This document shows, piece by piece, positions 3 to 18,500 of a stretch of DNA of 64,000 nt (its first letter is position 1; the number at the start of each line of letters is the position of its first letter). The notes under the pieces are model-generated. The model was given only the letters and a program-made list of their open reading frames with translations, made no database searches and had not been told where the DNA came from. The position numbers were made by a program, and so were the translations under genes. Source of the stretch: an uncultured bacterium (lineage in GTDB: Bacteria > Patescibacteriota > Minisyncoccia > Moranbacterales > GWC2-37-73); contig CAINNK010000008.1 of NCBI GenBank assembly GCA_903851135.1, positions 13,136 through 77,135 on the forward strand, read 5' to 3'.

Positions 3-1379
3 TCTTCATATTTTAGAGGTTATAAAACCGATGCGAATATACGAATTGATGCGAATCTGCGAATAAAACATTTAGAACAAGTTGAACATTTACAACACCT
101 AGAACATAATTTCGTGCCTGGGCGGAGTGAGTGGATTGGGTCGATGATGCCGTTGGTGGAAGAGGTTGAATTTGAGCAAACGGATTCAGTGCTGGAAGCT
201 TTGATCTTAGAAAGCAATCTCATCAAAAAACATCAGCCAAAATATAACACCCTGGAAAAAGATGACAAAAGTTTTGCCTATTTTGTGATCACCAAAGAAG
301 AATTCCCAAAGGTGTTGATAATGCGCAAGACGGATATTGAAAAAGTTCACAATTCACAGTTGTTGGTTCATAGAAAAAAAGCAATCAAAAAAAGGCCTGT
401 TGACGGTGAACTAGTAACTAAGAACATTTACGGGCCTTATACGAGCAAGCAGCAGATGCAGATTGCGCTGAAAATCATGCGGCGGATTTTTCCGTTCCAC
501 GGCGGCAAGCAGAAAACCGAGAAGGGCTGTTTGGATTTTCAATTGGGATTGTGTCCGGGGCCGTATGCTGGTGCAATCTCCAAAGAAGACTACAAGAAAA
601 ATATTGATGGCATCAAGCTGATTTTGAGCGGCAAGAAAAAAAGACTGCTTTCCGGCTTAGAAAAAGAAATGAAAATTTTGGCCAAGCAAAATGAATTTGA
701 AAAAGCGGCGCAGGTTCGGAACAAGATTTTTGCCTTGCAGCACATTCGCGATGTGGCACTCATCACACGTGATATGGAATCATCGTCAACAGTTCACAGT
801 TCACATTTCACAGATGCGAACGAATTATCGAGGGGGATAGGAACTGTGAACCGTGAACCAAGAACTATCCGAATCGAGGCGTATGACATTTCGAATATTT
901 CCGGCACTGATGCAGTGGGTTCGATGGTGGTTTTTGAAAATGGTGAGTCGAATAAAAGTCAGTATCGCAAGTTTAAAATCAAAACCGTTGATGGTAGCAA
1001 TGACGTGGCTATGATGAAAGAAGTTTTACTCAGGCGTTTCAAAAATGATTGGGCGATGCCGGATTTGATTTTGCTTGATGGTGGAATTGGTCACGTTAAT
1101 ATGGCTGAAAAATTGTTGCGTCAAGAGCTGGGCTTGGACGTTGCGATTGTTGGGGTGGCAAAAGGACCAACGAGGAAAAATCTCAAATTACAAATGGCAA
1201 ATTCTCACCCAAAGGGTGATCAGCCTTTGGCTGACAATAAAGTTCCAATGACTCAATTTCCAAAACAGTTGCAGAATTTTTTGAATGATAAGAATTTGGT
1301 CAAAAGTATTATGGATGAGGCGCATCGTTTTGCGATTACGTTTCACAGGAAACTGAGAGGGAAGAATGCACTAAAATAA
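3..1379 (+). CDS. uvrC: Excinuclease ABC subunit C (UvrC), 5'-partial; reading frame is open from nt 3, so the N-terminus lies upstream of the window
   Basis: End of the GIY-YIG domain (ALILESNLIKKHQPKYN), UVR-domain-like FEKAAQVRNKIFALQHI, UvrC endonuclease domain motifs RIEAYDISNISG...VGSMVVF, DLILLDGGIGHV, EAHRFAITFHR. No C-terminal HhH region before the stop. Frame 3 has no stop between nt 3 and the annotated ATG at 114. Confidence 0.8.
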   Translation, partial: SSYFRGYKTDANIRIDANLRIKHLEQVEHLQHLEHNFVPGRSEWIGSMMPLVEEVEFEQTDSVLEALILESNLIKKHQPKYNTLEKDDKSFAYFVITKEEFPKVLIMRKTDIEKVHNSQLLVHRKKAIKKRPVDGELVTKNIYGPYTSKQQMQIALKIMRRIFPFHGGKQKTEKGCLDFQLGLCPGPYAGAISKEDYKKNIDGIKLILSGKKKRLLSGLEKEMKILAKQNEFEKAAQVRNKIFALQHIRDVALITRDMESSSTVHSSHFTDANELSRGIGTVNREPRTIRIEAYDISNISGTDAVGSMVVFENGESNKSQYRKFKIKTVDGSNDVAMMKEVLLRRFKNDWAMPDLILLDGGIGHVNMAEKLLRQELGLDVAIVGVAKGPTRKNLKLQMANSHPKGDQPLADNKVPMTQFPKQLQNFLNDKNLVKSIMDEAHRFAITFHRKLRGKNALK

Positions 1380-1424
1380 TATATGATACTTTGCGTATTT
1401 AGAGAGTGAGGGTATAATTAAATT

Positions 1425-1817
1425 ATGCGAAAAATATTGAGAAAATATTTAACGGGTTTAATGCTGGCGGCCATCGTCTTGGTGGTTGGTGGTTTTTGCA
1501 GTGCGCCGATGGCGGGCGCTTCTTCGTCTGAGATGAACGGAATGACTGAGATTAGTGATGTTCATTGTGGGTCGGCTGACCACCTTGCGAAACATAAGGC
1601 TCCGATTAGCGACGCAATGATGCCGTGCTGCGTGGAAAAACATGACAATTCGTCAGTTTTCACGCCAGTTGCGCCAAATGAAAAAATCAGATTCGAGCAA
1701 GTTTCGATTGCTGAGCAATCGGTTTTGCTAGTTCAAACGATAAATCAAAAAACTTATGCTTCTTCGTCGTCTCCTCCGGAGCCTGACCTTCTTTTTTCTA
1801 GCGTGCGACTAGAATGA
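1425..1817 (+). CDS. Secreted Cys/His/Met-rich small protein, putative metal-binding (adjacent to copper-transport genes)
   Basis: N-terminal signal/TM segment (LMLAAIVLVVGGFCSAPMAGA). Motifs HCGSADHLAKHK and MMPCCVEKHD. Lies immediately upstream of the HMA/CopA genes. No specific family recognised. Confidence 0.45.
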   Translation: MRKILRKYLTGLMLAAIVLVVGGFCSAPMAGASSSEMNGMTEISDVHCGSADHLAKHKAPISDAMMPCCVEKHDNSSVFTPVAPNEKIRFEQVSIAEQSVLLVQTINQKTYASSSSPPEPDLLFSSVRLE

Positions 1818-2026
1818 AAAAATCTTTAACCTTGTTTTGAGGCAAGGTTGTTTGTGGTGGGCGATACATTGCAACACTTCGCTCGCATACGTTTTTGTTT
1901 TTATCCTAGTGAAAGTTTTTTTTGACTATTGGAAATTTTGACGCCAAGGTAAATCACTTTCAAACGAAAAAACAAAAAGTATGTTCGCTCGCTTCGTATG
2001 GTTCAGAGAAAAATGCAGAAGTGTGA

Positions 2027-2067
2027 AATTCTAAAATCTAGAATCTAAAATCTAGAATCTAAAATCT
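2027..2067. repeat. Heptamer tandem repeat (AATCTAA/AATCTAG)n
   Basis: Directly visible: ttctaaaatctagaatctaaaatctagaatctaaaatctg. The same family recurs at 18764-18794, 44796-44825, 58624-58660, 60007-60040 and 61670-61696, and inside rlmN near 40316-40352. Confidence 0.9.
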
Positions 2068-2114
2068 GCTCTCGTGTATTCGTAGGTTTATTAAAAATAT
2101 AAAAAATTATAGAT

Positions 2115-3569
2115 ATGAATAATAAAATAATTGTTCCGATTGCCGGCATGCATTGCCGCAGCTGCGAACTTTTGGTTGAGGACAGTTTGTCAGAAGTTAC
2201 AGGCGTTCGGCGCAGTGTGGTTAATTTCAAAAAGGGCACGGCTGAAATTAATTTTGACGGGCAAAAACCTAATGAGGTTGAAATTGAAAAAGCAATTCGC
2301 GGTGCTGGGTATAGCCTTGGCAGTGACAAACCAAAAACTTGGCTGAGCAAAAATCCCGAGGATTATAAAGATTTGGCAGTGGCTGGAATTTTTTTGGTTG
2401 GTTTGTTTATTGTTGCGAAAAATCTCGGGCTGACAAATGTCAATCTTGGTGGCGTTTCAAATCCATCTAGTTTGGGCGTGGTTTTTTTGGTGGGAATTAC
2501 GGCTGGGCTTTCAACTTGCATGGCCTTGGTGGGTGGGCTGATTTTGGGAATTGCGGCCAGGCATAATGAGAAACATCCTGAGGCGAGCGCAATGCAAAAA
2601 TTCAGGCCGCATTTGTTTTTTAATCTCGGAAGAATTGGTGGCTATGCATTTTTCGGAGCAATTCTTGGCTCACTTGGCTCAGCCTTGCAAATGTCAGGTC
2701 TAGTTTTGGGAATTTTGACTATTGCAGTTGGGCTGGTGATGTTGGCGCTGGGAGTTAAATTGTTGGGAATTTTTCCGCGTTTGGAAAATGCTGCCATTTC
2801 TTTGCCAACAAGTGTGGCTAAATTCTTTGGAATCAAAAAAGAAGTTAAAGAATATAGTCATTGCGGTTCAATGCTCACGGGCGCCCTGACATTTTTTCTG
2901 CCTTGCGGTTTCACCCAGGCGATGCAACTTTTTGCAGTGAGCTCTGGCAGTCCTGTTCAAGGGGGTTTGATTATGGGCATTTTTGCTCTTGGAACGGCGC
3001 CAGGTTTGCTTGGGGTGGGCGCTATCACTTCAGTTGTGAAAGGAATTTTTGCTAAACGTTTTTTCAAGTTTGCAGGAGTCCTGGTGATCATCTTGGCATT
3101 CTTCAATATTGCCAATGGCTTTAATTTGGCAGGCTGGCAGAATCCAACAGTTAACAGTTCACAGTCAACAGTTCATAGTCAAAGTGTTGATCCGAATGTG
3201 AAGATGGAAAATGGGGCGCAGGTAGTTAGTATGGTTGAGGCTGGCAGTGGATATTCACCGAACAAGTTTACTATCAAAAAAGGTGTGCCAGTGCGCTGGG
3301 TGATTGATGCTCAAGCTCCAAATTCTTGTGCTAGCAGTATTTTGGTTTCAAGTTTGAATATTCGAAAAACTTTAACAGCAGGACAAAACGTGATTGAATT
3401 TACGCCAAAGGAGGTTGGCAAAATTCCATTTTCTTGCGGCATGGGGATGTATACTGGTGTTTTCAATGTGGTGGATGACCAAGGCAATGGCGCTGGCGCA
3501 GTTGATGAAAAAGCTCCGGGCGCTAATATTCCTAGTGGAGTCTGCACTGTTAACGGATGTGGGAATTAA
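2115..3569 (+). CDS. Heavy-metal-associated (HMA) domain membrane protein (DsbD_2/TauE-like polytopic core) with C-terminal cupredoxin-like domain
   Basis: N-terminal HMA fold with GMHCRSCE (CxxC). About 8 hydrophobic helices including LPCGFTQAM. C-terminal soluble domain with FSCGMGMY, reminiscent of cupredoxin_1/EfeO-like copper sites. Contains an in-frame low-complexity insert NPTVNSSQSTVHSQSV (3141-3180). Confidence 0.7.
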   Translation: MNNKIIVPIAGMHCRSCELLVEDSLSEVTGVRRSVVNFKKGTAEINFDGQKPNEVEIEKAIRGAGYSLGSDKPKTWLSKNPEDYKDLAVAGIFLVGLFIVAKNLGLTNVNLGGVSNPSSLGVVFLVGITAGLSTCMALVGGLILGIAARHNEKHPEASAMQKFRPHLFFNLGRIGGYAFFGAILGSLGSALQMSGLVLGILTIAVGLVMLALGVKLLGIFPRLENAAISLPTSVAKFFGIKKEVKEYSHCGSMLTGALTFFLPCGFTQAMQLFAVSSGSPVQGGLIMGIFALGTAPGLLGVGAITSVVKGIFAKRFFKFAGVLVIILAFFNIANGFNLAGWQNPTVNSSQSTVHSQSVDPNVKMENGAQVVSMVEAGSGYSPNKFTIKKGVPVRWVIDAQAPNSCASSILVSSLNIRKTLTAGQNVIEFTPKEVGKIPFSCGMGMYTGVFNVVDDQGNGAGAVDEKAPGANIPSGVCTVNGCGN

Positions 3570-3718
3570 GTTTTTAAAACCGATACGAAACTACGAAACA
3601 AATCCGAATCTACGAACAGGTTTTGATGAATAGAAATGTTTTTGTATATTAGTATATTCGTAAGAGATTAGTAATTTAGTGGGGCAAGGGTAGTTTTAAA
3701 TTCTAAAACTTAGTTATT

Positions 3719-6139
3719 ATGAAAAGAATAAATTTATCCCTTTCTGGCATGCATTGCACTTCGTGCGCAATGTTGGTCGAGAGAACGCTTGGAAAAACGC
3801 CTGGCGTCCAAAAAGCTAGTGTGAATTTTCCGGCTGAAAAAGTTTTGGTTGATTTTGATGAGCAGATAACTGATGTGCAAAAAATCATCGCAGCCATTGG
3901 GCGGGGTGGTTATGGTGCGCAAGAAGTTGATGCTAAAGATAGTGAGTTTGAAGGCAAGAAAATAGCCAAAGAAGTTTCTGATTATTTCAGTAGGTTTATT
4001 TTCAGTGCAATTTTGAGCTCTCCAATGCTGTATTTCATGCTGCTGGATTTTTTCAAGTGGCTGCCTGGTGAAAAAGGCCTGGCACCATACGTGGGAATTT
4101 TCTCGCTGCTGCTGACGATTCCGGTGCAGTTTGTGGTTGGCAAAGATTTTTATAAAGGCATGTGGGCGGCACTGAAAATGAAAACTTTCAACATGGATAG
4201 CTTGATTGCAATTGGGACTTCGACGGCTTTTTTCTATAGTTCGTATAATTTTGCAACTTATGCAATTGCCAACAAGTCTGTGATTGGAGCGGGCGGAGCG
4301 AAAATTCCAGATCTCTATTTCGAAACCGCTGCCTATTTGATAACCTTCGTTATTTTGGGAAAGTGGTTGGAAATTCGCACTAAGGGAAAAACTTCTGATG
4401 CTATCAAAAAGTTGATGGGAATGCAGGCTAAGACTGCACGTGTCCTTCGGCAGGCTCAAGATAAAATTATCGAGATTGATATTCCGATTGAAGAAGTTGT
4501 GCATGGTGACATTATTCTTGTGCGTCCGGGAGAAAAAGTTCCAGTGGATGGAAAAATGACCAAAGGCGCATCTTCAGTGGATGAGTCCATGCTTACTGGG
4601 GAAAGTTTACCGGTAGAAAAAAGTGTCGGTAGCTTCGTGGTTGGAGGAACAATCAACAAGACTGGAAGTTTTGAATTTGAGGCCACAAAAATTGGCTCAG
4701 AAACGACGTTGGCTCAGATTATCCGCCTGATTGAAGAGGCTCAGGGATCAAAAGCACCGATTCAAAATTTTGCTGACAAAATTGCAGCTTGGTTTGTGCC
4801 AGCTGTAATTGGGCTTGCAATACTAACGTTTCTTGCTTGGTTCTTCGTGCTTGGCGGAACTTTGGCATTTTCACTTATGGCTTTCACTTCAGTGATTGTG
4901 ATTGCCTGCCCTTGTGCGTTGGGATTGGCCACGCCAACTTCCTTAATGGTGGGAACTGGCAAGGGTGCTGAGTATGGAGTGCTCGTGAAAGGTGGAGAAG
5001 CGCTTGAAGCAGCCAGTAATATTTCAGCGGTAATCTTTGACAAAACTGGAACACTTACTCATGGGAAACCGCAGGTGACGGATATCATGTCAATTGGCGA
5101 CATGGACGAGGATGAGATATTGGCAGTTTCCGCAAGTCTGGAAAAGCTTTCTGAACATCCCTTGGCGGAAGCGATTTATACGCATGCTCAAGAAAAAAAT
5201 ATCAACTTAAAAAATGTTGATGATTTCAATTCGATTCCTGGCCATGGTGTCAAAGGTAGTATTGGCGGAGTTGTTTATCATTTTGGCAATCGCAAGTTGG
5301 CGAGTGATTTGAGAATTAGTTTTGAGCATGTTAATGCTGAGCTGGAAAAGTTGGAGAATGAAGGCAAGACAGCGATGATTTTGACCGATGAAAAAAATGT
5401 TTTGGCCATCATTGCAGTGGCGGACACTGTGAAAGAAACTTCGCGCGAAGCTGTGGCAAAATTAAAAATGATGGGCATTGAAGTTTTCATGATTACTGGT
5501 GATAATTTGCGAACTGCTAAAGCGATTGCAAAACTTGTTGGCATTGACGAGCAGCATGTTTTGGCTGAGGTTTTACCTGAGGACAAAGCTAATGTGGTTA
5601 AGGCCTTGCAAGAAAATAATGTAAAAAAGCTTTCCGAATTATTTGGAAATTGGAAATTGGAAATTGGAAATTCTCGCCAAAGGCGAGCTGTGGCTATGGT
5701 TGGTGATGGCATTAATGATGCTCCGGCTTTAGCACAGGCTAATGTGGGCATTGCGATGGGCACAGGAACTGACGTGGCGATGGAGGCAGGCGATATTGTG
5801 ATTATGAAAAGTGATTTGAATGATGTGGTGACTTCACTGCAACTTTCCAAAGAAACCATGGGCAAGATTCGGCAGAATATGTTCTTTGCTTTGTTTTATA
5901 ACGTGATTGGCATTCCGATTGCGGCTCGGGTTTTCTTTGCGTTTGGATTGATTTTAAAACCGGAATTAGCAGGCTTGGCGATGGCGATGAGTTCGATTTC
6001 GGTGGTAGGAAATTCCTTGTTGCTGCGATTATTCAAACCTGGCAAAAAGAATTATATTTCAATGATTGCTCCAGTATTCATGGTCGTTGTTTTCACTTTT
6101 GGATTTGTGTTGTTTGCCAAGTTGAGTAGTGGTATGTAG
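3719..6139 (+). CDS. copA: Copper-translocating P1B-type ATPase (CopA family)
   Basis: N-terminal HMA with [13 protein letters not shown] motif ([11 protein letters not shown]). Phosphorylation site DKTGTLT. Motifs TGDN and [11 protein letters not shown]. 806 aa. In-frame repeat insert [20 protein letters not shown] (about 5630-5690) encoded by ttggaaattggaaattggaaatt. Confidence 0.92.
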
Positions 6140-6184
6140 TGAAATATTCTTGCAAAATTGACGTATTAATTAACGCCTTAATTT

Positions 6185-6289
6185 GTCATCCTAAATTTAT
6201 TTCAGGATCTTGGTTGGAGGAGGTTTTGTGAGGTGGAGAAAGCAGATTCTGAAACCCTCCAGAGGCGGACAGGCAAGTTCAGAATGACA
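6185..6289. promoter_or_regulatory. Paired hairpin motif (GTCATCCTAAATTTATTTCAGGATC ... GATTCTGAAAC-N19-AAGTTCAGAATGACA), the same family as at 46265-46349; candidate operator of a metalloregulator
   Basis: Each arm is an internal palindrome (ATCCT..AGGAT and ATTCTGAA..TTCAGAAT). Both variants recur upstream of the CsoR-family gene at 46265-46349. Located between the copA stop and the SHOCT gene. Confidence 0.35.
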
Positions 6290-6302
6290 GGAGTGTATTA
6301 CT

Positions 6303-6338
6303 ATTTGTAGATTTGTAGCAGATTTGTATATTTGTAGG
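6303..6338. repeat. Tandem repeat (ATTTGTAG)n
   Basis: atttgtagatttgtagcagatttgtatatttgtagg. The same family occurs at 18721-18755 and 29041-29068 (directly upstream of the leuS start) and 25800-25815 (start of the ABC permease gene). Confidence 0.85.
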
Positions 6339-6367
6339 GTGTAATTTTTAATTAATTCAAAAAACAT

Positions 6368-6640
6368 ATGATGTATGGATATGGCGTAAGTCATGGCGTG
6401 GGTTTGTTTGGGGAAATTTTTTCGTTGATTTTCTGGGCGGCGATAATTTGGCTTATTATAACCCTGGTGCGCGGCGGTCATCAACATGGCAAAAGTTGTT
6501 GTGGCGGGCATGGCGACGAGCAAAGGCCTGATAACGCCACGGAAATTTTGCGCCAGCGCTTTGCCAAAGGTGAAATTTCCAAGGAAGAATTTGAAAGCAG
6601 AAGCGCCGTGCTTGAAGGCAAAAAAGTGGAGGAAAAATAA
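6368..6640 (+). CDS. SHOCT-domain small membrane protein, His/Cys-rich
   Basis: N-terminal TM helix. HGGHQHGKSCCGGHGDEQ segment. C-terminal LRQRFAKGEISKEEFESRSAVLEG matches the SHOCT (short C-terminal) domain pattern. Follows the copper ATPase. Confidence 0.6.
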   Translation: MMYGYGVSHGVGLFGEIFSLIFWAAIIWLIITLVRGGHQHGKSCCGGHGDEQRPDNATEILRQRFAKGEISKEEFESRSAVLEGKKVEEK

Positions 6641-6659
6641 GGTTTATCTGAAAAGAAAA

Positions 6660-6687
6660 ATCAGAGTCTAGGCTCTGATTTTTTTAA
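6660..6687 (+). terminator. Rho-independent terminator
   Basis: atcagag-tctagg-ctctgat hairpin followed by an 8-T run, immediately after the SHOCT gene stop. Confidence 0.7.
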
Positions 6688-6823: not shown

Positions 6824-7228
6824 ATGCTGGAAAATGCAAGAGAAATCGCCGTTGAGCGATGTGTTACGCAGCTCATTGAAGATAGTTTTTACAAGGGCTA
6901 CTTGAAAATTGGTGGTATGCAAATTGATTATGAGGCGACGTTCTTGATACCAGTTTCCAAACTCCATACTTCTGGCTGGAAATCTCTCAAGTGTATCGCA
7001 GAGGTTCGCAAGATTTTCCAGCTAACCTTGAGCAGTAAAGATAGTAATTTTATTGAAATGAGTGATGACGAAGCTGGTTTTTTCATTGGCATGCTCTTCT
7101 CTTTTATCATTGAAAACTTTAGTGAATCAGTATTTACTGTTAGTATAATTCACAATAGCAAAATTTACGTTAAGGATGATAAACTGATCAACATTTTGAG
7201 TGACAAAAAATATGGCTGTAAATTTTAA
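6824..7228 (+). CDS. Hypothetical protein (134 aa), orphan, with own promoter and SD
   Basis: Clean ORF with strong RBS. No recognisable motif. Flanked by AT-rich non-coding DNA (6688-6823 and 7229-7537). Confidence 0.5.
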   Translation: MLENAREIAVERCVTQLIEDSFYKGYLKIGGMQIDYEATFLIPVSKLHTSGWKSLKCIAEVRKIFQLTLSSKDSNFIEMSDDEAGFFIGMLFSFIIENFSESVFTVSIIHNSKIYVKDDKLINILSDKKYGCKF

Positions 7229-7537: not shown

Positions 7538-10330
7538 ATGGCTTCCAAAAAAACAACTTCAAACAATGTGCGGGACATTGTTATTAAGGGTGCGCGGGTG
7601 AACAATTTGAAAAACATTGATGTCACAATTCCGCGCGACAAATTTGTGGTCATCACTGGGCTTTCTGGGTCTGGAAAATCCTCACTGGCTTTTGATACGA
7701 TTTATGCTGAAGGAAATCGCAGGTATATGGAAGGACTTTCTTCTTATGCACGCAATTTCTTGGATCCTTCAGTCAAGCCCGACGTCGATAAAATTGAAAA
7801 TCTTTCGCCGCCGATTTCGATTGACCAAAAAAGCATCTCACGCTCTCCACGTTCAACTGTGGGAACACTGACGGAAGTGTATGATTATTTGCGCATTTTG
7901 TATGCCAAAGTTGGCATCATTCATTGTCCGGAGTGTGGCACTTCCATGCAAAAAAGAAGCAATCGTGAAATTTTGGATGAGATTTTGACTTTTTCTCATC
8001 ACACGCAAATTGCTATCTTGGCCAAACCGAAAGATGCTTCAACTGGCAAAGAACTTTTGCGCCACATTCAACGGTTGGGTTATGCACGGGTGCGCTTTGG
8101 CGAGAAAATGTACACCATCACGGATGCACTTTCTTTGGATGAAACTGAAATTATCGGTGAAATTGAAATGGTGATTGATCGTGTGGTGTTGGACAAGAAA
8201 AACCCTGACAATGAACGGATGTTAGATTCAATCGAAACGGCCATGAAAATGGGCAACAATTCGATGAAAATTTTGTTTGATAATGTGGAGGAACGCAGTT
8301 ATAATCAAGATTTTTTTTGCAGCAAATGCGGAATCAAAATTAAGGAAGTGACGCCGCGTCATTTTTCTTTCAACTCTCCAGAAGGAGCTTGTGACACTTG
8401 TAGTGGTCTGGGGTATACCTTGAAAGTCAATCAAGAGTTGGTGGTTCCAAACAAAAATCTTTCTATTTTAGAGGGAGCAATTCTTCCTTGGAGCAAGTCA
8501 GGCGGAAAAATCAATGGACAAAATAGTCAACTGCTTTTACTTAAAGAAGTTGCCAAAAAACACAAATTTTCTTTGAGTGTGCCGATGAAAAAACTTTCCA
8601 AGAAACAATGGGACGTGGTTCTTTTTGGTGGTGAAGGTTTTGAGGGCGTGATTCCAGCCTTGGAGAAAAAATATTTTGAAACAAAATCGGAATATTTGCG
8701 CAGTGAAATTGAGAAATATATGACCGGCCGTACTTGCGAGACTTGTCAGGGAAAAAGACTCAAGAAAGAATTTTTGGCCGTTGAAATCAATGGGAAAACT
8801 ATTGATGATTTGGTTTGTTTGAGCATCACTCATCTGCGAGAATTTTTTGAAAAGGCTGGCATCTGGAGTCAGACAACTCAAGAAAAAGAAATTGAGCGAC
8901 CGGTTTTTCGAGAAATTTTGCAGCGTCTCAAGGCATTGGAAAATGTTGGTTTGGAATATTTGAATTTGGGGCGCAGTGCGCAAACAATTTCTGGCGGCGA
9001 AGCGCAGCGTATTCGTTTGGCGGCGCAACTTAATTCTCAACTAATGGGAATTGTCTATGTTTTGGATGAGCCTTCTATTGGCCTGCATAGTCGCGATACG
9101 GAAAAATTGATTGCCACGATGCGTCAGCTGCAAAATGTGGGTAATTCTTTGATCGTGGTTGAACATGACGAAAGTATTATTAGGGCGGCTGATTGGATTG
9201 TGGACATGGGACCTGGCGCCGGAGAAGAAGGCGGCATCGTGGTTTTTGAGGGTGACTACAAGAAACTCATCAAAAGCAAAAATCTGACGGCGCAATATAT
9301 TTCCAAAAAGAAAAAAGTTTCTGACAAGAAAAAATATCGAACTGGTAATGGCAAGCAAATTGAAATCATCGGTGCCACGGAGCACAACCTTAAAAACATT
9401 GATGTGGCTATTCCATTGCACAAGTTCGTGGCTATTTGCGGCGTGTCCGGCTCTGGGAAATCAACTTTGGTCAAGGACATTTTGTCCAAAGCTTTGTCAC
9501 GACATTTTTATGGCAACAAAGATTTGCCAGGCAAACACAAAAAAATCAAAGGTTTTGAAAACGTCAAAAAAGTCATTAGCATTAATCAAAATCCAATCGG
9601 ACGCACACCGCGTTCTAATGCCGCGACCTATACGGGCGTGTTCTCGCACATTCGTGATCTTTTTGCTAGCGTGGAAGAAGCCAAGGCTCGCAACTATACG
9701 GCTAGTCGTTTTAGTTTTAACATGAAAGGCGGACGCTGCGAAGTTTGTCAGGGAGATGGTTCGCGAAAAATTGAAATGCATTTACTGCCGGATGTGTATG
9801 TGAAATGTGAAGCTTGTGACGGTACGCGTTTTTCCAAAAAGACTTTGGAAATTGAATATAAAGGATTTAACATCGCGCAAATTTTGGATATGGATGTGCG
9901 CTTGGCGCTACGATTTTTTGCCAGGCACCCGCTGATTGCCGAGAAACTTAAAACTATGGAAGATGTAGGTCTGGGCTATTTGAAACTCGGGCAAAGTGCC
10001 ACCAATCTTTCCGGCGGCGAAGCGCAGCGCATCAAATTAGCCACAGAGCTTGCTCGCAAATCAACTGGCAATACTTTGTATATTTTGGATGAACCGACAG
10101 CAGGACTTCATTTCGATGACATTCGCAAATTGCTCACTGTGCTTAACGCCTTAGTAGACAAGGGTAACACTGTCATCGTGGTTGAACATAATCTCGACGT
10201 AGTCAGGGATGCTGATTGGGTGATTGAGCTTGGTCCGGATGGTGGAGATTTGGGAGGCTTTCTTAATTTTGAAGGCACGCCGGAGAAATTAAAGAAGGAT
10301 AAGAAGAGTTGGACCGCGAAATATTTATGA
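7538..10330 (+). CDS. uvrA: Excinuclease ABC subunit A (UvrA)
   Basis: Two ABC ATPase modules: Walker [20 protein letters not shown] and [10 protein letters not shown], signature LSGGEAQRI twice, zinc-finger Cys clusters. 930 aa. Confidence 0.95.
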
Positions 10331-15546: not shown

Positions 15547-18500
15547 ATGAATTTTAAGAAGGTTGATGTCAAACAAAGTTTTCCGAAGATGGAGGAAGAG
15601 ATTTTGAAATTTTGGGAAACTGAAAAAATTTTTGAAAAATCTTTGGAAAAAACCAAGGGTGGGAAGCCCTACACTTTTTTTGATGGGCCACCTTTTGCGA
15701 CGGGCACGCCTCATCATGGGCATATTGTGGGCAGTGTGATGAAAGATGTGGTGCCGAGATTTTGGACAATGAAAGGACGACATGTGGAAAGAAAATGGGG
15801 TTGGGATTGCCATGGGCTGCCGATTGAAAACATTGCTGAAAAAGAATTGGGTTTCAAGCACAAGAAAGATATCGAGGAATATGGTGTTGATAAGTTCAAC
15901 GAGTTTTGTCGCAGCAAAGTTTTGGGTTATGTGGATGATTGGAAAAAAGTAATCAACCGATTGGGCCGCTGGGCTGACATGGAAAATGCCTACAAGACCA
16001 TGGATTTGAAGTATATGGAATCAGTTTGGTGGGTTTTCAAAGAATTGTGGGACAAAGGCTTGATTTATGAAGGTTATCGTTCCATGCACATTTGCACTCG
16101 CTGCGAAACCACCCTTTCTCAACAGGAAGTTTCGGAAGGATACAAGGATATCAAGGATTTATCAGTGGTTGCAAAGTTTGAGTTGCTCTCTACGAATTAC
16201 CTGCCTACCGGACAGGCAGGCGAATCTGATACGAATGTACGAAAAGAAGACGAAGCCAAGACTTATATTTTGGCGTGGACAACGACGCCTTGGACTTTGA
16301 TTGGAAATGTGGCGCTGGCAGTGGGGAAGGATATTGAATATGAATATTTACAAATAGATGCTAGTGATAGCGCTAAATTCAATAAGGGCGATATTTATAT
16401 TGTAGGTTTGGAAAAAATTAAAAATGTATCAGGAGGAACTTTAGCTGTTTATGATTGGGGATACAATGTTAATTTTGCAAATGAGGGTAACGTTTCTTTT
16501 AAGCGAATAAAGACCATAAAGGGTTCTGATCTGATTGGTAAAACCTACAAGCCGCTTTTTGATTATTATCAGACTCCGGATTTGGAAAATGCAGAAAATG
16601 GCTGGAAAATTTATGCGGGTGATTTTGTGACGACGGAAGATGGAGTGGGTGTGGTGCATATCGCGCCGGCTTTTGGGGAGGATGATATGAATTTGGGAAA
16701 GGAAAACAATTTGCCTTTCATTCAGCATGTGAAAATGGATGGAACCATTAAAGAGCAAGCGACTGACTTTGCTGGGATGAATGTAAAATCCTTGGAAGAT
16801 CATATGCAGACTGACATTGAAATTATCAAATATCTGGCAAAGCATGGCACGCTTTTTTCCAAAGAAAAATATGAGCACAGTTATCCGCATTGTTGGCGCT
16901 GCGATACACCGTTAATCAACTACGCAACCACTTCTTGGTTTGTCAGTGTTGGCAAAGTGAAGCAGCGAGCGCTTGAGCTAGCCAAGGAAATCACTTGGTT
17001 TCCGGCGCATATCAAAGATGGACGTTTCGGAAAATGGTTGGAAGGCGCTCGTGATTGGTCAATTTCCCGTCAGCGTTTTTGGGCGTCAGTGATGCCGATT
17101 TGGCGCTGTGAATGCGGCGAGATGAAAGTTTTTGGCTCAGTAGCTGACTTGGAAAAAGTTTCAGGTGAAAAAATATCAGACTTGCATAAACACATTGTCG
17201 ACAAAATAACTGTGCCATGTGAAAAGTGTGGAAAACAAATGCACCGCGTGCCGGATGTTTTGGACACTTGGTTTGACTCTGGTTCGATGCCATATGCTCA
17301 GCAGCACTATCCATTTGAAAATCAAGAAAAATTTGAAGACGGTTTTCCAGCTGAATTCATCGCAGAGGGCGTGGATCAAACTCGCGCTTGGTTTTATTAT
17401 TTGCATTTGATTGCCACGGCCATCAAAGATAAAAATGCTTTCAACAATGTCATCGTTAATGGAATCGTGTTGGCGGAAGATGGCAAGAAAATGTCCAAGC
17501 GGCTGCAGAATTATCCAGATCCGACTTATCTTTTTGACAAATATGGAGCTGATGCTCTCAGATTTTATTTGATGTCTTCGCCAGTGGTGGCTGCGGACAA
17601 TTTGAATTTCAAAGAAAGCGATGTTTCTGATTTGGTGCGCGGAATGTTTCGCATGCTTTGGAATTCGTATTCGTTTTTTGCACTTTACGCCAACATTGAT
17701 GGCTTTGATTCAAAAAAGAAAAATGAAAAATCCGAAAATCTTTTGGACAAATGGATTTTGTCAGAACTGCATATTCTCATCAAAGAAGTCAATGAAAATA
17801 TGGAAAAATATGATTTGGCACGCACAGCCAGACTGTTTCCAAAATTTATCGACAATCTTTCCAATTGGTACATTCGCCGCTCTCGCAAAAGATTTTGGAA
17901 ATCTGAAAATGATGCTGACAAGGATTTTGCTTATCAAACTCTGCACACCGTGTTGGTTGAACTTTCAAAATTGATGGCACCATTCACGCCGTTCATGTCG
18001 GAAGAAATTTACAGGAATTTGGTTAGCAGTTCACAGTCAACAGTTCACGGCGAAGAGAGTGTTCATCTTGCTGATTTTCCAGTGGCGGATGAGAGTTTGA
18101 TTGATGAAAAGTTGAATGAAGACATGGAATTGGTAAGATTTATTGTTACGGAGGGGCTTAGAAGTCGTGCTGAGCATAAAATAAAAGTAAGGCAACCATT
18201 GAAATCTGTAACTGCAAGACCAATAAGAATTGAATTGCAAGAAATGGTAAAAGAAGAACTTAATGTTAAAGAATATAATAGTGATGGTTTTAAAGATGGC
18301 GAAGAAGGATTTTTTAATATGTTAGATCTTTCTATTACTCCCGAACTTAAACTCGAAGGTCAAGCTCGTGAAATTGTGCGTTTCATTCAGGAAATGCGTA
18401 AGCAGGCAGGTTATGAAGTTGAAAATCATATCAGCGTTCAATTCGAAGGTCTTGATGAAGTTTTTGAAAAGTTTTCAGATTTGATTGCCAAGGAAACTTT

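What the first reader, a model, noticed from the sequence alone, without database searches (positions are those of the whole stretch)
1425..6687. Compact copper/heavy-metal homeostasis module with an unusual HMA-polytopic-cupredoxin fusion
Four consecutive same-strand genes: a secreted Cys/His/Met-rich protein, an HMA(CxxC)-8TM-cupredoxin-like protein, CopA (HMA + CPC + DKTGT), and a His/Cys-rich SHOCT membrane protein, ending in a clean terminator. The HMA + DsbD_2/TauE-like core + C-terminal FSCGMGMY cupredoxin-like domain architecture is uncommon. It suggests a periplasm-facing copper handling or chaperoning step coupled to the ATPase.
Basis: partly seen in the sequence, partly recalled or inferred. 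Interest (0 to 1): 0.6.

Follow-up and report, generated by a model that had tools for sequence, protein, structure and literature searches.

The report
Copper pump locus with thiol-relay partner
This is an ordinary copper-export locus of an uncultured Moranbacteria-type (CPR) bacterium. Its unusual-looking three-domain membrane protein is in fact very common next to copper pumps, wrongly named in databases and never studied, and it probably passes copper ions across the membrane from one sulfur-containing site to the next.

Summary
The four same-strand genes and the terminator are present as described. Pfam confirms HMA, DsbD_2 and Cupredoxin_1 in gene 2, a P1B-1 CopA in gene 3 and SHOCT in gene 4. 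Three details are wrong. Gene 2 has 7 transmembrane helices, not 8. The locus is not compact, with spacers of 298, 150 and 229 bp. The architecture is not uncommon: more than 4,200 database homologues and at least 590 species genomes, throughout the Patescibacteria.

- **Synteny:** copA follows on the same strand in 60 of 67 informative loci.
- **C-terminal domain:** it is a CupA-type Cu(I) cupredoxin, not a blue-copper site. It matches pneumococcal CupA (PDB 4F2E) at E 2e-13, and the Cys…CxMxM ligand set is invariant. It is predicted to lie outside the cell.
- **Membrane core:** two cysteines (C135, P263-C264) are invariant from CPR bacteria to Actinobacteria, haloarchaea and Shewanella, and the core recurs beside P1B ATPases.
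- **HMA link:** where the HMA domain is not fused, a separate HMA gene follows the core gene.

Best model: a three-station Cu(I) thiolate relay, with cupredoxin outside, a Cys pair in the membrane and HMA inside, working with CopA. The direction of copper movement is unresolved. The main rival is a CcdA-like electron relay.

I found no paper on this protein. The database name "sulfite exporter TauE/SafE" gets no support from the HMM searches. The locus is ordinary; the accessory protein is moderately interesting.

The parts
1425..1817 (+). Gene 1: a 130-aa exported protein. It has a K/R-rich N-terminus, one hydrophobic helix and an AxA signal-peptidase site. Conserved motifs are HCG, MPCC and a strictly C-terminal SPPEPD..RLE.
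   Evidence: ORF; no Pfam or NCBIfam family. It belongs to a small orphan family: 11 close homologues and 36 representatives at E<=1e-3 among 1.84 billion proteins. The Cys-Cys pair, P117 and the terminal Glu are invariant. Recognisable relatives lie just upstream of gene 2 in 5 of the fetched loci, and other CC-motif proteins of about 130 aa sit in the same position in more loci.
1827..1850 (+). A 10-bp hairpin just after gene 1, a possible weak terminator.
   Evidence: Terminator scan. Fold dG -11.3, z only -0.95.
2020..2114 (+). Conserved stretch upstream of gene 2 that includes the 14-nt tandem repeat TCTAAAATCTAGAA x2.7 (2030-2067). It is a candidate promoter or operator.
   Evidence: Tandem Repeats Finder. 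These last ~95 nt are nearly identical in a relative whose protein is 95% identical, while sequence further upstream diverges. Function not tested.
2115..3569 (+). Gene 2: a 484-aa membrane protein with HMA, one extra helix, a six-helix DsbD_2 core and a CupA-type cupredoxin. This is the proposed Cu(I) thiolate relay.
   Evidence: Pfam; homologues; AlphaFold model with pLDDT 66; topology.
2133..2312 (+). Gene 2 HMA domain (residues 7-66) with the motif GMHCRSC. Predicted cytoplasmic.
   Evidence: PF00403 E 5.5e-14. Matches to CopZ, MerP and ATP7B domains in the PDB. C14 and C17 are invariant in 40 homologues.
2367..3131 (+). Gene 2 membrane part: the extra helix (residues 85-103) plus the six-helix DsbD_2 core (residues 120-339). 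The core carries C135 in helix 1 (STCMA) and P263-C264 in helix 4 (FLPCGFTQAMQ).
   Evidence: PF13386 E 3.5e-31. C135, P263 and C264 are invariant across 13 sequences from CPR bacteria, Clostridia, Chloroflexota, Actinomycetota, Deinococcus, haloarchaea, Paenibacillus and Shewanella. G127-x7-C135 and G256-x7-C264 have the same spacing.
3198..3476 (+). Gene 2 CupA-type cupredoxin domain (residues 362-454). The ligand set is C405, C441, M443 and M445. Predicted extracytoplasmic.
   Evidence: phmmer against the PDB: CupA 2MRY/4F2E E 1.9e-13 and pneumococcal CopA metal-binding domain 4F2F E 6.7e-13, with the Cys and CxMxM residues aligned. Foldseek: rmsd 1.4-1.5 A over 92-93 residues. The ligands are invariant in 40 homologues.
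3534..3566 (+). Gene 2 C-terminal tail GVCTVNGCGN. It is a Cys-x4-Cys stub of the Gly/Cys-rich linker that, in the ~600-aa homologues, leads to a second cupredoxin domain.
   Evidence: Comparison with P0008, P0019, P0052, P0095 and P0107. The long form occurs in 29 of 77 loci.
3578..3616 (+). Short dispersed repeat (CCGATACGAA..TACGAA type) in the spacer between gene 2 and copA.
   Evidence: Pattern search found 5 matches at 3 places in the window against 0.06 expected. One place lies in frame inside uvrC at 26-63.
3719..6139 (+). Gene 3: an 806-aa CopA, a P1B-1 Cu(I)/Ag(I)-exporting P-type ATPase with one N-terminal HMA domain.
   Evidence: TIGR01511 E 1.4e-181 and TIGR01525 E 7e-194, both above cut-off. 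Pfam E1-E2_ATPase, Hydrolase and HMA. The motifs GMHCTSC, CPC, DKTGT, YN and MAMSS are visible.
5630..5692 (+). In-frame insertion of 20-21 aa ([20 protein letters not shown]) in the CopA P-domain. It is encoded by a (TTGGAAA)x4.3 run followed by a small hairpin.
   Evidence: Tandem repeat at 5643-5672. It is present in the L001 and L003 CopA proteins and absent from three other CPR CopAs. Heptamer runs also occur in L067 copA and, in the opposite orientation, in L003 uvrC.
6368..6640 (+). Gene 4: a 90-aa protein with one helix, a His/Cys/Gly-rich linker (GGHQHGKSCCGGHG) and a C-terminal SHOCT domain.
   Evidence: PF09851 at 28.1 bits against a cut-off of 27. SHOCT relatives occur in 9 of the fetched loci, and only some of them have the Cys/His linker.
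6654..6685 (+). Intrinsic terminator closing the locus.
   Evidence: A 14-bp stem with a U-rich 3' arm, dG -15.3 kcal/mol, z -3.2; 1 of 200 shuffles folds as well.

Best explanation
The locus is a copper-efflux locus: a P1B-1 CopA pump plus three accessory genes.

**Shown.** The accessory protein of interest, gene 2, has three thiol-based metal stations in series across the membrane.
- A cytoplasmic HMA domain with a CxxC motif.
- Two cysteines at equivalent positions in helix 1 and helix 4 of a pseudo-symmetric six-helix DsbD_2 core, each with a Met nearby.
- An extracytoplasmic CupA-type cupredoxin domain that keeps the Cys, Cys, Met, Met ligand set of CupA's binuclear Cu(I) site.

**Inferred.** The protein passes Cu(I), and possibly other thiol-loving ions, from station to station by ligand exchange. 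The ion would stay protein-bound throughout, and the protein would link the outer face of the membrane to the cytoplasmic HMA/CopZ/CopA pool.
- The core keeps no charged residue across the family and has no ATPase, so I expect unpowered, downhill transfer.
- The direction is not decided by the data. I lean slightly to inward capture and hand-off to the chaperone pool that feeds CopA. The two characterised systems with this layout are both importers that sit in resistance operons: MerP to MerT to the HMA domain of MerA, and CopC with CopD. Known transporters also tend to carry extra binding domains on the entry side.
- Gene 1 (exported, Cys-Cys motif) and gene 4 (SHOCT with a His/Cys linker) are probably further copper-binding accessories.
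For: - **Domains and motifs:**
- **CupA homology:** E 1.9e-13 to 2MRY/4F2E with the Cys and CxMxM ligands aligned, and rmsd 1.4 A. The Met ligands are invariant; a pure redox pair would not need them.
- **Topology:** 7 helices with 16 K/R on inner loops and 0 on outer loops. In the aligned set, the extra N-terminal helix occurs only in forms with an N-terminal extension, which in all but one (Ca. Chlorohelix) is an HMA domain. That is what connecting a cytoplasmic domain to an N-out core requires.
- **Membrane cysteines:** C135 and P263-C264 are invariant across six bacterial phyla and haloarchaea. Core-only relatives and the Acetoanaerobium homologue have H-C-x-x-M-C-G-G in helix 1, which looks like a metal site.
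- **Link to the pump:** copA lies downstream in 60 of 67 CPR loci, with copZ between in 26 and csoR upstream in 24. A P1B ATPase is adjacent in 7 of 11 sampled distant contexts, including ccoI-ccoS in Shewanella and 2-nt spacing in haloarchaea.
- **Gene fusion evidence:** in Tsukamurella, Mycolicibacterium, Streptomyces, Deinococcus and Ca. Chlorohelix the core-cupredoxin gene is followed by a separate small gene annotated as HMA-domain protein (in Streptomyces, an 85-aa "cation transporter").
- **Reductases are separate genes:** canonical CcdA plus DsbA- or TlpA-like reductases occur as separate genes in the same islands. This argues that the gene 2 core does something other than supply reductant.
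- **Mercury context:** merA directly follows the pair in Tsukamurella, which fits an import role there.
- **Family precedent:** the LysE/DsbD superfamily contains both metal carriers and electron carriers (PMC4608589).
Against: - There are no experimental data for any member, and none of the literature searches run here found a description.
- An importer in a copper-excess operon looks futile, because CopA returns the copper to the same compartment. The direction is therefore a weak inference by analogy.
- The invariant pattern of one Cys in helix 1 and a Pro-Cys in helix 4 is also the hallmark of the CcdA/DsbD electron carriers.
- The AlphaFold models are mediocre (pLDDT 66 and 56). No coordinates were available, so I could not check that the two membrane cysteines lie close together.
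- No solved structure matches the core by sequence profile or fold.
- CPR relatives are closely related to each other, so invariance within them carries little weight. The cross-phylum alignment has only 13 sequences.
Confidence: 0.5

Rival explanations
1. Electron (disulfide) relay. The DsbD_2 core would work like CcdA/DsbD and shuttle reducing equivalents from the cytoplasm through its two membrane cysteines to the two cysteines of the outer cupredoxin domain. This would keep the external Cu(I) site reduced, or make the domain a catalytic Cu(II) reductase. No metal would cross the membrane through this protein.
For: - The Pfam family is DsbD_2, and the invariant residues are one Cys in helix 1 and Pro-Cys in helix 4 of a 3+3 helix core. 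That is the CcdA pattern.
- The best local profile match to CPR CcdA-like proteins falls on the PC helix.
- The bis-thiolate site of CupA reduces Cu(II) in vitro (review PMC7558416).
- Copper-linked roles are listed for the DsbD family (PMC4608589).
- Core-only relatives sit in clusters for maturation of oxidases and N2O reductase, with SCO and FixH proteins, where thiol reduction is needed.
Against: - There is no HMM hit to the CcdA model PF02683, and the profile comparison gives a probability of 1.2%.
- The cytoplasmic partner is an HMA metallochaperone domain, fused or encoded next door, not a thioredoxin.
- Genuine CcdA plus thioredoxin-like reductases are separate genes in the same islands, which would make this role redundant.
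- The Met ligands of the cupredoxin, and the His/Met beside the membrane cysteines in core-only forms, point to metal binding.
Confidence: 0.2
2. Outward route or exit-side acceptor. Cu(I) would move from the HMA domain through the membrane cysteines to the outer cupredoxin domain, or the cupredoxin would simply accept Cu(I) released by CopA. The outer domains and Cys-rich linkers would buffer the exported copper and stop it re-entering, with oxidation or sulfide outside acting as the sink.
For: - The gene is placed with csoR, copZ and copA, which respond to excess cytoplasmic copper.
- The long forms carry two outer cupredoxin domains and a CGGCGG linker, giving high external binding capacity.
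- Gene 1 adds exported Cys-Cys sites.
- The tight association with P1B exporters reaches across Bacteria and Archaea.
Against: - No energy coupling is visible. No charged residue is kept across the family, and there is no ATPase domain.
- Export against the very low free Cu(I) of the cytoplasm needs a driving force.
- No characterised exporter has this layout, and known exporters rarely need exit-side binding domains.
- If the core were only an anchor, its two cysteines would not be invariant across phyla.
Confidence: 0.2
3. The database name is right: gene 2 is a TauE/SafE-type sulfite or organosulfonate anion exporter that merely sits next to copA.
For: Several sources name the homologues 'sulfite exporter TauE/SafE family protein'.
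Against: - No TauE/SafE HMM hit was found, even at E up to 10.
- Two bona fide copper-binding domains are fused to the core.
- The neighbours are consistently heavy-metal genes in several phyla.
Confidence: 0.02

Closest known systems
CupA, the membrane-anchored Cu(I) chaperone of Streptococcus pneumoniae (PDB 4F2E, 2MRY), and the cupredoxin metal-binding domain of pneumococcal CopA (4F2F)
   Same: The C-terminal domain of gene 2 is homologous to both (E about 1e-13, 34% identity, rmsd 1.4-1.5 A). It keeps the two Cys and the CxMxM methionines that form CupA's binuclear Cu(I) site. Both proteins are encoded next to copA.
   Different: - CupA has a single N-terminal anchor helix and is taken to act on the cytoplasmic side, handing Cu(I) to a cupredoxin domain on CopA (PMC7558416).
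- Here the domain follows 7 helices and is predicted to lie outside the cell. It is fused to a DsbD_2 core and an HMA domain, and the neighbouring CopA has an HMA domain rather than a cupredoxin domain.
- The review says CupA occurs in only a few streptococci. This domain type is in fact widespread.
MerP / MerT / N-terminal HMA domain of MerA (mercury import relay)
   Same: The logic is the same: a Cys pair outside, a Cys pair in the membrane, then a cytoplasmic HMA CxxC acceptor. Both are unpowered and both sit in resistance operons. In Tsukamurella a relative lies directly upstream of merA.
   Different: The membrane parts are not homologous. NCBIfam MerTP and MerT models match only the HMA domain and fall far below cut-off. 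The outer domain is a cupredoxin rather than an HMA fold. The context here is copper.
CopC/CopD and the CopC-CopD fusion YcnJ (copper uptake; from my own knowledge of the literature)
   Same: An extracytoplasmic beta-sandwich copper-binding domain is joined to a multi-helix membrane protein, and the genes can sit in copper-resistance operons.
   Different: There are no Pfam CopC or CopD hits. The ligands here are thiol and thioether rather than His and Met, and CopCD has no cytoplasmic HMA domain.
CcdA / DsbD / ScsB transmembrane thiol-disulfide electron carriers
   Same: Both have a six-helix 3+3 core with one essential Cys in helix 1 and one in helix 4, and both belong to the same superfamily (PMC4608589). 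Copper-tolerance roles are known for the family.
   Different: There is no hit to the CcdA model, and the profile comparison is not significant. Only helix 4 has the Pro-Cys motif. The partners are metal-binding domains rather than thioredoxin folds, and real CcdA genes occur separately in the same islands.
Canonical csoR-copZ-copA operon of Gram-positive bacteria
   Same: CopA here is a standard P1B-1 pump. Many CPR relatives of this locus carry csoR upstream (24 of 77) or copZ between gene 2 and copA (26 of 60).
   Different: The window has no csoR, copZ or other metal regulator anywhere in its 64 kb. It has the three accessory genes instead.

Membership tests
HMA domain (PF00403) | HMM score above the gathering cut-off and a GMxCxxC metal-binding loop | tested here: met
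   Gene 2 scores 52.7 bits against a cut-off of 24.8 and has GMHCRSC. CopA scores 57.7 bits and has GMHCTSC. C14 and C17 are invariant.
DsbD_2 (PF13386) | HMM score above the gathering cut-off over the six-helix core | tested here: met
   109.1 bits against a cut-off of 24.9, covering residues 123-328 and profile positions 2-197 of 199.
CcdA/DsbD electron carriers (PF02683) | Sequence membership by HMM or profile match | tested here: not met
   No PF02683 hit at E up to 10. hhalign against CcdA-like proteins from the CPR loci gives probability 1.2% over 22 columns. No PDB CcdA or DsbD hit with the profile.
CcdA/DsbD electron carriers (PF02683) | One conserved Cys in helix 1 and one in helix 4 of a 3+3 repeat | tested here: met
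   C135 and C264 are invariant across phyla, with G127-x7-C135 matching G256-x7-C264. Only helix 4 has the Pro-Cys motif.
CcdA/DsbD electron carriers (PF02683) | Thiol-disulfide cycling driven by thioredoxin, with a thioredoxin-fold acceptor outside | not testable with these tools
   This needs biochemistry. The fused or adjacent partners are HMA and cupredoxin domains, not thioredoxin folds.
TauE/SafE sulfite exporter (PF01925, TSUP) | HMM match to the family | tested here: not met
   No hit at E<=1 for the whole protein or E<=10 for the core. The name exists only as a database label.
CupA-type Cu(I) cupredoxin (within PF13473) | Cupredoxin fold homologous to CupA | tested here: met
   PF13473 scores 35.2 bits against a cut-off of 27. 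phmmer to 2MRY/4F2E gives E 1.9e-13. Foldseek gives TM-score 0.85 on the target and rmsd 1.4 A.
CupA-type Cu(I) cupredoxin (within PF13473) | Ligand set of the binuclear Cu(I) site: two Cys plus the two Met of CxMxM | tested here: met
   C405 aligns with the first CupA Cys, and C441-G-M443-G-M445 aligns with CupA C-G-M-N-M. All four residues are invariant in 40 homologues. Actual Cu(I) binding was not tested.
CupA-type Cu(I) cupredoxin (within PF13473) | Single N-terminal anchor helix, acting on the cytoplasmic side with a cupredoxin domain on CopA | tested here: not met
   The domain follows 7 helices and is predicted to lie outside. The CopA here has an HMA N-terminal domain. CupA properties are taken from PMC7558416.
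Type 1 blue-copper cupredoxin | His2-Cys-Met ligand set | tested here: not met
   No His at the ligand positions. The site is Cys, Cys, Met, Met.
P1B-1 copper ATPase (CopA) | Family HMM above cut-off plus the CPC, DKTGT, YN and MxxSS motifs | tested here: met
   TIGR01511 scores 605 bits against a cut-off of 397, and TIGR01525 scores 646 against 346. The motifs [21 protein letters not shown] and MAMSSISV are in the translation. The E. coli CopA equivalog model scores below its cut-off (607 against 1316), as expected for a distant organism.
SHOCT (PF09851) | HMM score above the gathering cut-off | tested here: met
   28.1 bits against a cut-off of 27 over residues 59-78, so only marginal. The motif ILRQRFAKGEISKEEFE matches the SHOCT neighbours in other loci.
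DUF2946 (suggested for gene 1) | HMM match | tested here: not met
   Gene 1 has no Pfam or NCBIfam family at E<=1.
MerT/MerP mercury transport | Homology of the membrane part to MerT | tested here: not met
   The NCBIfam MerTP_fusion model (45 bits against a cut-off of 180) and the MerT_CopZ model (30 against 375) match only the HMA domain. The resemblance is functional only.

The most novel reading that the evidence does not exclude
DsbD_2-core proteins may be a general, so far unrecognised class of thiol-lined Cu(I) conduits, in effect membrane-embedded metallochaperones, that partner P1B copper ATPases across Bacteria and Archaea. This would cover detoxification loci (this CPR fusion, Actinobacteria, haloarchaea) and cuproenzyme assembly clusters (ccoGHIS, nos/SCO, ba3 oxidase). 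The CPR fusion would show the complete pathway in one polypeptide: HMA inside, Cys pair in the membrane, CupA-type domain outside.
Probability: 0.3. Interest if true: 0.7.

Novelty: new variant of a known kind. Interest (0 to 1): 0.42.

Why it matters
- **Copper handling outside the cell.** How Cu(I) is handled on the outer face of the membrane is poorly understood in bacteria that lack the periplasmic machinery of Gram-negatives, and it is unknown whether anything besides P-type ATPases carries it across. A widespread, conserved partner of copA with metal stations on both sides and in the membrane is a concrete candidate that can be tested.
- **Annotation.** Thousands of database entries called "sulfite exporter TauE/SafE" in heavy-metal islands are probably misnamed. 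CupA-type copper domains, which a recent review describes as confined to a few streptococci, are widespread and here face outward.
- **Reduced genomes.** Patescibacteria have very small genomes, so keeping this gene beside copA in so many lineages suggests it matters.
- **Limits.** The locus as a whole is still a standard copper-resistance locus, and nothing here overturns known principles.

Tried and rejected
- **Solved relative of the membrane core.** A profile search of the PDB gave nothing. A core-only AlphaFold model reached only pLDDT 56.5, and Foldseek then gave no match below E 1. This line is uninformative.
- **Direct tie to CcdA.** hhalign against CcdA-like proteins from the same loci gave probability 1.2%, which is not significant.
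- **Literature.** Searches for DsbD_2 with cupredoxin, PF13386, TauE with HMA, cupredoxin and CopA, UreH with DsbD, and ccoS with TauE found no paper on this protein.
- **DUF2946 for gene 1.** No hit.
- **A regulator or copZ elsewhere in the window.** tblastn with csoR, copZ, BlaI/CopY-like, response regulator, CcdA-like and DsbA-like queries found nothing.
- **RNA elements.** Rfam at gathering threshold found only two tRNAs far away, so no known riboswitch or RNA family.
- **CopY box upstream of gene 4.** The ATTTGTAG copies are direct repeats, not the inverted TACAnnTGTA, so I rejected it (by eye).
- **Lipoprotein reading of gene 1.** Rejected, because the residue before the Cys is Phe and the Cys is not conserved in relatives.

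Full report
**1. What is in the sequence**

Between a uvrC-like gene (running in from the window start to 1379) and uvrA (7538-10330) lie four + strand ORFs:
- gene 1, 1425-1817, 130 aa
- gene 2, 2115-3569, 484 aa
- gene 3, 3719-6139, 806 aa
- gene 4, 6368-6640, 90 aa

Pfam gives these results:
- Gene 2 has HMA (residues 7-66, E 5.5e-14), DsbD_2 (123-328, E 3.5e-31) and Cupredoxin_1 (365-449, E 1.3e-8), all above the curated cut-offs.
- Gene 3 has E1-E2_ATPase, Hydrolase and HMA.
- Gene 4 has SHOCT, just above cut-off (28.1 against 27 bits).
- Gene 1 has nothing.

NCBIfam places gene 3 in the copper P-type ATPases (TIGR01511, E 1.4e-181). Its translation shows GMHCTSC, CPC, DKTGT, YN and MAMSS, the signature of a P1B-1 Cu(I)/Ag(I) exporter.

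The terminator after gene 4 is a 14-bp stem at 6654-6685 (dG -15.3, z -3.2).

The spacers are 298, 150 and 229 bp, and a 10-bp hairpin follows gene 1. "Compact" is therefore an overstatement.

**2. The architecture is common, not rare**

- A search of 5.8 billion proteins returned more than 4,211 homologues of gene 2. All but two of the 120 listed have all three domains, and where named they come from Moranbacteria or Patescibacteria and are called "sulfite exporter TauE/SafE family protein".
Where a lineage is named, the best 80 come from across the CPR: Moran-, Roizman-, Levy-, Berkel-, Gottesman-, Ames-, Magasanik-, Falkow-, Gracili-, Sacchari-, Uhr- and Buchananbacteria and WWE3. About 20 of the 80 carry other taxonomic labels that I could not check.
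- The exact protein occurs on at least 17 metagenome contigs with the same gene order.
- Most homologues are about 600 aa. They add a Gly/Cys-rich linker (CGGCGG) and a second cupredoxin domain, and this long form occurs in 29 of 77 loci. The window's copy is the short form, with a C-terminal GVCTVNGCGN stub.

**3. Conserved neighbourhood**

I called and clustered ORFs in the 80 loci.
- copA lies downstream on the same strand in 60 of the 67 loci with enough downstream DNA.
- The usual CPR layout is csoR (PF02583), a small exported protein of about 130 aa, gene 2, copZ (a 68-aa HMA protein), then copA, which is often 900-1200 aa.
- copZ lies between gene 2 and copA in 26 loci, and csoR lies upstream in 24.
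- Other recurrent neighbours are a histidine kinase with a response regulator, a DsbA-like thioredoxin, a canonical CcdA (PF02683), DUF1573, a BlaI/BlaR1-like pair, DUF2933, DUF5676, DUF302 and SHOCT.
- The window has none of csoR, copZ, copY, CcdA or DsbA anywhere in its 64 kb.
- The close Moranbacteria relatives share the window's reduced layout of uvrC, gene 1, gene 2, copA, then SHOCT in some of them.

**4. The C-terminal domain is a CupA-type Cu(I) domain**

- phmmer against PDB sequences matches residues 362-454 to Streptococcus pneumoniae CupA (2MRY/4F2E, E 1.9e-13) and to the cupredoxin metal-binding domain of pneumococcal CopA (4F2F, E 6.7e-13).
- C405 aligns with the first CupA cysteine. 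C441-G-M-G-M445 aligns with CupA's C-G-M-N-M.
- The AlphaFold model (pLDDT 66) superposes on 4F2E and 4F2F at 1.4-1.5 A over 92-93 residues. These are the best PDB matches.
- All four ligand residues are invariant in 40 homologues.
- According to the review PMC7558416, CupA holds a binuclear Cu(I) cluster with a high-affinity bis-thiolate site and a Met-rich low-affinity site. [quoted passage not shown]
- The domain here is therefore not a blue-copper electron carrier, and the domain type is much more widespread than that review says.

**5. Topology**

The AlphaFold secondary structure and hydropathy give seven helices: one extra helix (85-103) followed by a six-helix core (120-339). With this model the loops assigned to the inside carry 16 K/R and those assigned to the outside carry none. 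The HMA domain is thus cytoplasmic and the cupredoxin domain extracytoplasmic.

An internal check agrees. Relatives without any N-terminal extension (Actinobacteria, Deinococcus, the core-only forms) start directly at core helix 1. The extra helix appears in the forms with an N-terminal HMA domain, and in the Ca. Chlorohelix form, which has an N-terminal extension without HMA.

**6. The membrane core**

- Only PF13386 matches the core. TauE, CcdA (PF02683) and NicO do not, even at E up to 10.
- A cross-phylum alignment of 13 sequences covers CPR bacteria, Acetoanaerobium, Ca. Chlorohelix, Tsukamurella, Streptomyces, Deinococcus, Halorientalis, Paenibacillus and Shewanella. Its only invariant residues are glycines, one further proline (P296), C135 and P263-C264.
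- G127-x7-C135 and G256-x7-C264 have the same spacing. This is the 3+3 pseudo-symmetry described for this superfamily (PMC4608589).
- Core-only relatives and the Acetoanaerobium homologue have H-C-x-x-M-C-G-G in helix 1. The CPR forms have S-T-C-M.
- No charged residue is kept across the family.
- No solved structure is detectably related.

**7. Distant contexts**

A tblastn search of plasmid records found 87 records with a match, and I looked at 11 of them.
- In Tsukamurella and Mycolicibacterium the order is P-type ATPase, core-cupredoxin gene, then a separate HMA gene. In Tsukamurella this is followed by merA and a multicopper oxidase.
- In Streptomyces, Deinococcus and Ca. Chlorohelix the core-cupredoxin gene is again followed by a small gene: annotated as an HMA-domain protein in Deinococcus and Chlorohelix, and as an 85-aa "cation transporter" in Streptomyces.
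- Acetoanaerobium (Clostridia) has the full three-domain fusion, followed by a 752-aa ORF of the size expected for a P-type ATPase, which I did not check by HMM or BLAST.
- In two of the three haloarchaeal contexts I opened (Halorientalis, Halomicrobium) the core alone lies 2 nt upstream of a P-type ATPase, once next to ba3 oxidase genes. The third (Haloplanus) has no adjacent ATPase.
- In Shewanella the core follows ccoI-ccoS.
- In Paenibacillus it sits among nos, SCO and FixH genes.

A P1B ATPase is adjacent in 7 of the 11. The fused and split HMA arrangements are classic gene-fusion evidence that the HMA domain and the core work together. Separate CcdA and TlpA-like reductase genes recur in the same islands.

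**8. Mechanism**

Three things are shown:
- three thiol-based sites in series: HMA CxxC inside, a Cys pair in the membrane, and Cys2Met2 outside
- tight linkage to copper ATPases
- conservation of every ligand

What I infer is that Cu(I) is handed from site to site by ligand exchange, as in the mercury relay from MerP to MerT to the HMA domain of MerA.

The direction of movement cannot be read from sequence.
- I lean to inward capture and hand-off. Both characterised systems with this layout (MerP/MerT and CopC/CopD) are importers in resistance operons. Known transporters carry extra binding domains on the entry side. No energy coupling is visible.
- This is an argument by analogy, and an importer beside an exporter looks futile.
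- Outward movement or exit-side buffering remains a serious alternative.

The chief rival is a CcdA-like electron relay that keeps the outer cysteines reduced or reduces Cu(II).
- For it: the invariant Cys pattern, and CupA's reductase activity in vitro.
- Against it: the cytoplasmic partner is a metallochaperone fold rather than a thioredoxin, real CcdA systems are encoded separately nearby, and the Met ligands are conserved.

The database name "sulfite exporter" has no support from these searches.

**9. The small genes**

- **Gene 1** belongs to a small orphan family, with 36 representatives at E<=1e-3 among 1.84 billion proteins. It has an N-terminal signal sequence with an AxA site, an invariant Cys-Cys pair and a strictly C-terminal SPPxPDxLSSVxKxE motif. 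Divergent proteins with the same features occupy the same position upstream of gene 2 in other CPR loci. It is probably an exported thiol-based copper-binding partner; this is inference.
- **Gene 4** is one of a set of single-helix SHOCT proteins near copA. Only some of them carry the Cys/His linker.

**10. Verdict**

The claim of rarity is wrong. The locus is an ordinary copper-efflux locus of an uncultured Moranbacteria-type organism.

What deserves attention is the accessory protein. It is common, conserved, mis-annotated and, as far as my searches show, unstudied. It offers a clear, testable model for thiol-mediated copper passage at the membrane.

I rate it a new variant of a known kind, with an interest score of about 0.4.

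Noticed in passing
window 5630-5692 (inside copA); L001 9337-9364; L067 9209-9236; L003 5155-5175 (- strand, inside uvrC): The CopA P-domain has an in-frame insertion of 20-21 aa ([20 protein letters not shown]) just before the [12 protein letters not shown] motif. It is encoded by a (TTGGAAA)x4.3 heptamer run followed by the small hairpin CTCGCCAAAGGCGAG. The same peptide is present in CopA of two other Moranbacteria (L001, L003) and absent from three other CPR CopAs. A heptamer run also occurs in L067 copA and, in the opposite orientation, in frame inside uvrC of L003 (peptide [10 protein letters not shown]). This looks like a small repeat that coding DNA tolerates.
   Followed up: partly
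window 26-63 (inside uvrC, frame 3), 3578-3616 (gene 2-copA spacer), 16224-16243: A short dispersed repeat of the type AACCGATRCGAA..TACGAA gives 5 matches at 3 places against 0.06 expected. At the window start it forms part of an in-frame insertion in UvrC: SYFRG[YKTDANIRIDANLRIKHLEQVEHLQHLEHNF]VPGRSEW. The UvrC proteins of related genomes carry several different insertions at the same and other points. This resembles the palindromic elements of Rickettsia that insert in frame.
   Followed up: partly
window 2020-2114: A 14-nt tandem repeat, TCTAAAATCTAGAA x2.7 (each unit contains the palindrome TCTAGA), ends 48 nt upstream of the gene 2 start. The last ~95 nt before the ATG are almost identical in a relative whose protein is 95% identical (L089), while sequence further upstream has diverged. 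It is a candidate operator in a locus that has no linked regulator gene.
   Followed up: partly
window 6303-6337: Four direct copies of ATTTGTAG lie about 30 nt upstream of the SHOCT gene. They are direct repeats, not a CopY-type inverted box.
   Followed up: no
window 1408-1425: A perfect TATAAT lies 7 nt before the gene 1 ATG, so gene 1 may be transcribed as a leaderless or nearly leaderless mRNA. By eye, none of the four genes has a Shine-Dalgarno sequence.
   Followed up: no
L059, L069, L070, L073 (between the gene 2 homologue and copA); L095 4154-4531 (Hymenobacter plasmid): Stand-alone cupredoxin proteins of 119-125 aa are encoded directly next to copA in several CPR genomes and in Hymenobacter (PF13473 E 2.5e-26 for L070). 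CupA-like proteins are therefore not confined to streptococci.
   Followed up: partly
L088 3974-4666 (Shewanella baltica plasmid); L093 3980-4753 (Halomicrobium); L087 3971-4648 (Paenibacillus): Core-only DsbD_2 relatives, with H-C-x-x-M-C-G-G in helix 1, are encoded right after ccoI-ccoS, 2 nt upstream of a P-type ATPase beside ba3 oxidase genes, and inside a nos/SCO/FixH cluster. The family therefore looks linked to cuproenzyme assembly as well as to detoxification.
   Followed up: partly
L090 1-739 (same metagenome contig as the window, upstream of the window start): On the public contig that carries the identical gene 2, an rve-family integrase or transposase gene overlaps the 5' end of the called uvrC. 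That uvrC product has no GIY-YIG domain hit.
   Followed up: no
window 6824-7228: A 134-aa + strand ORF between the terminator and uvrA has no Pfam or NCBIfam family and no relative in the 80 fetched loci.
   Followed up: no
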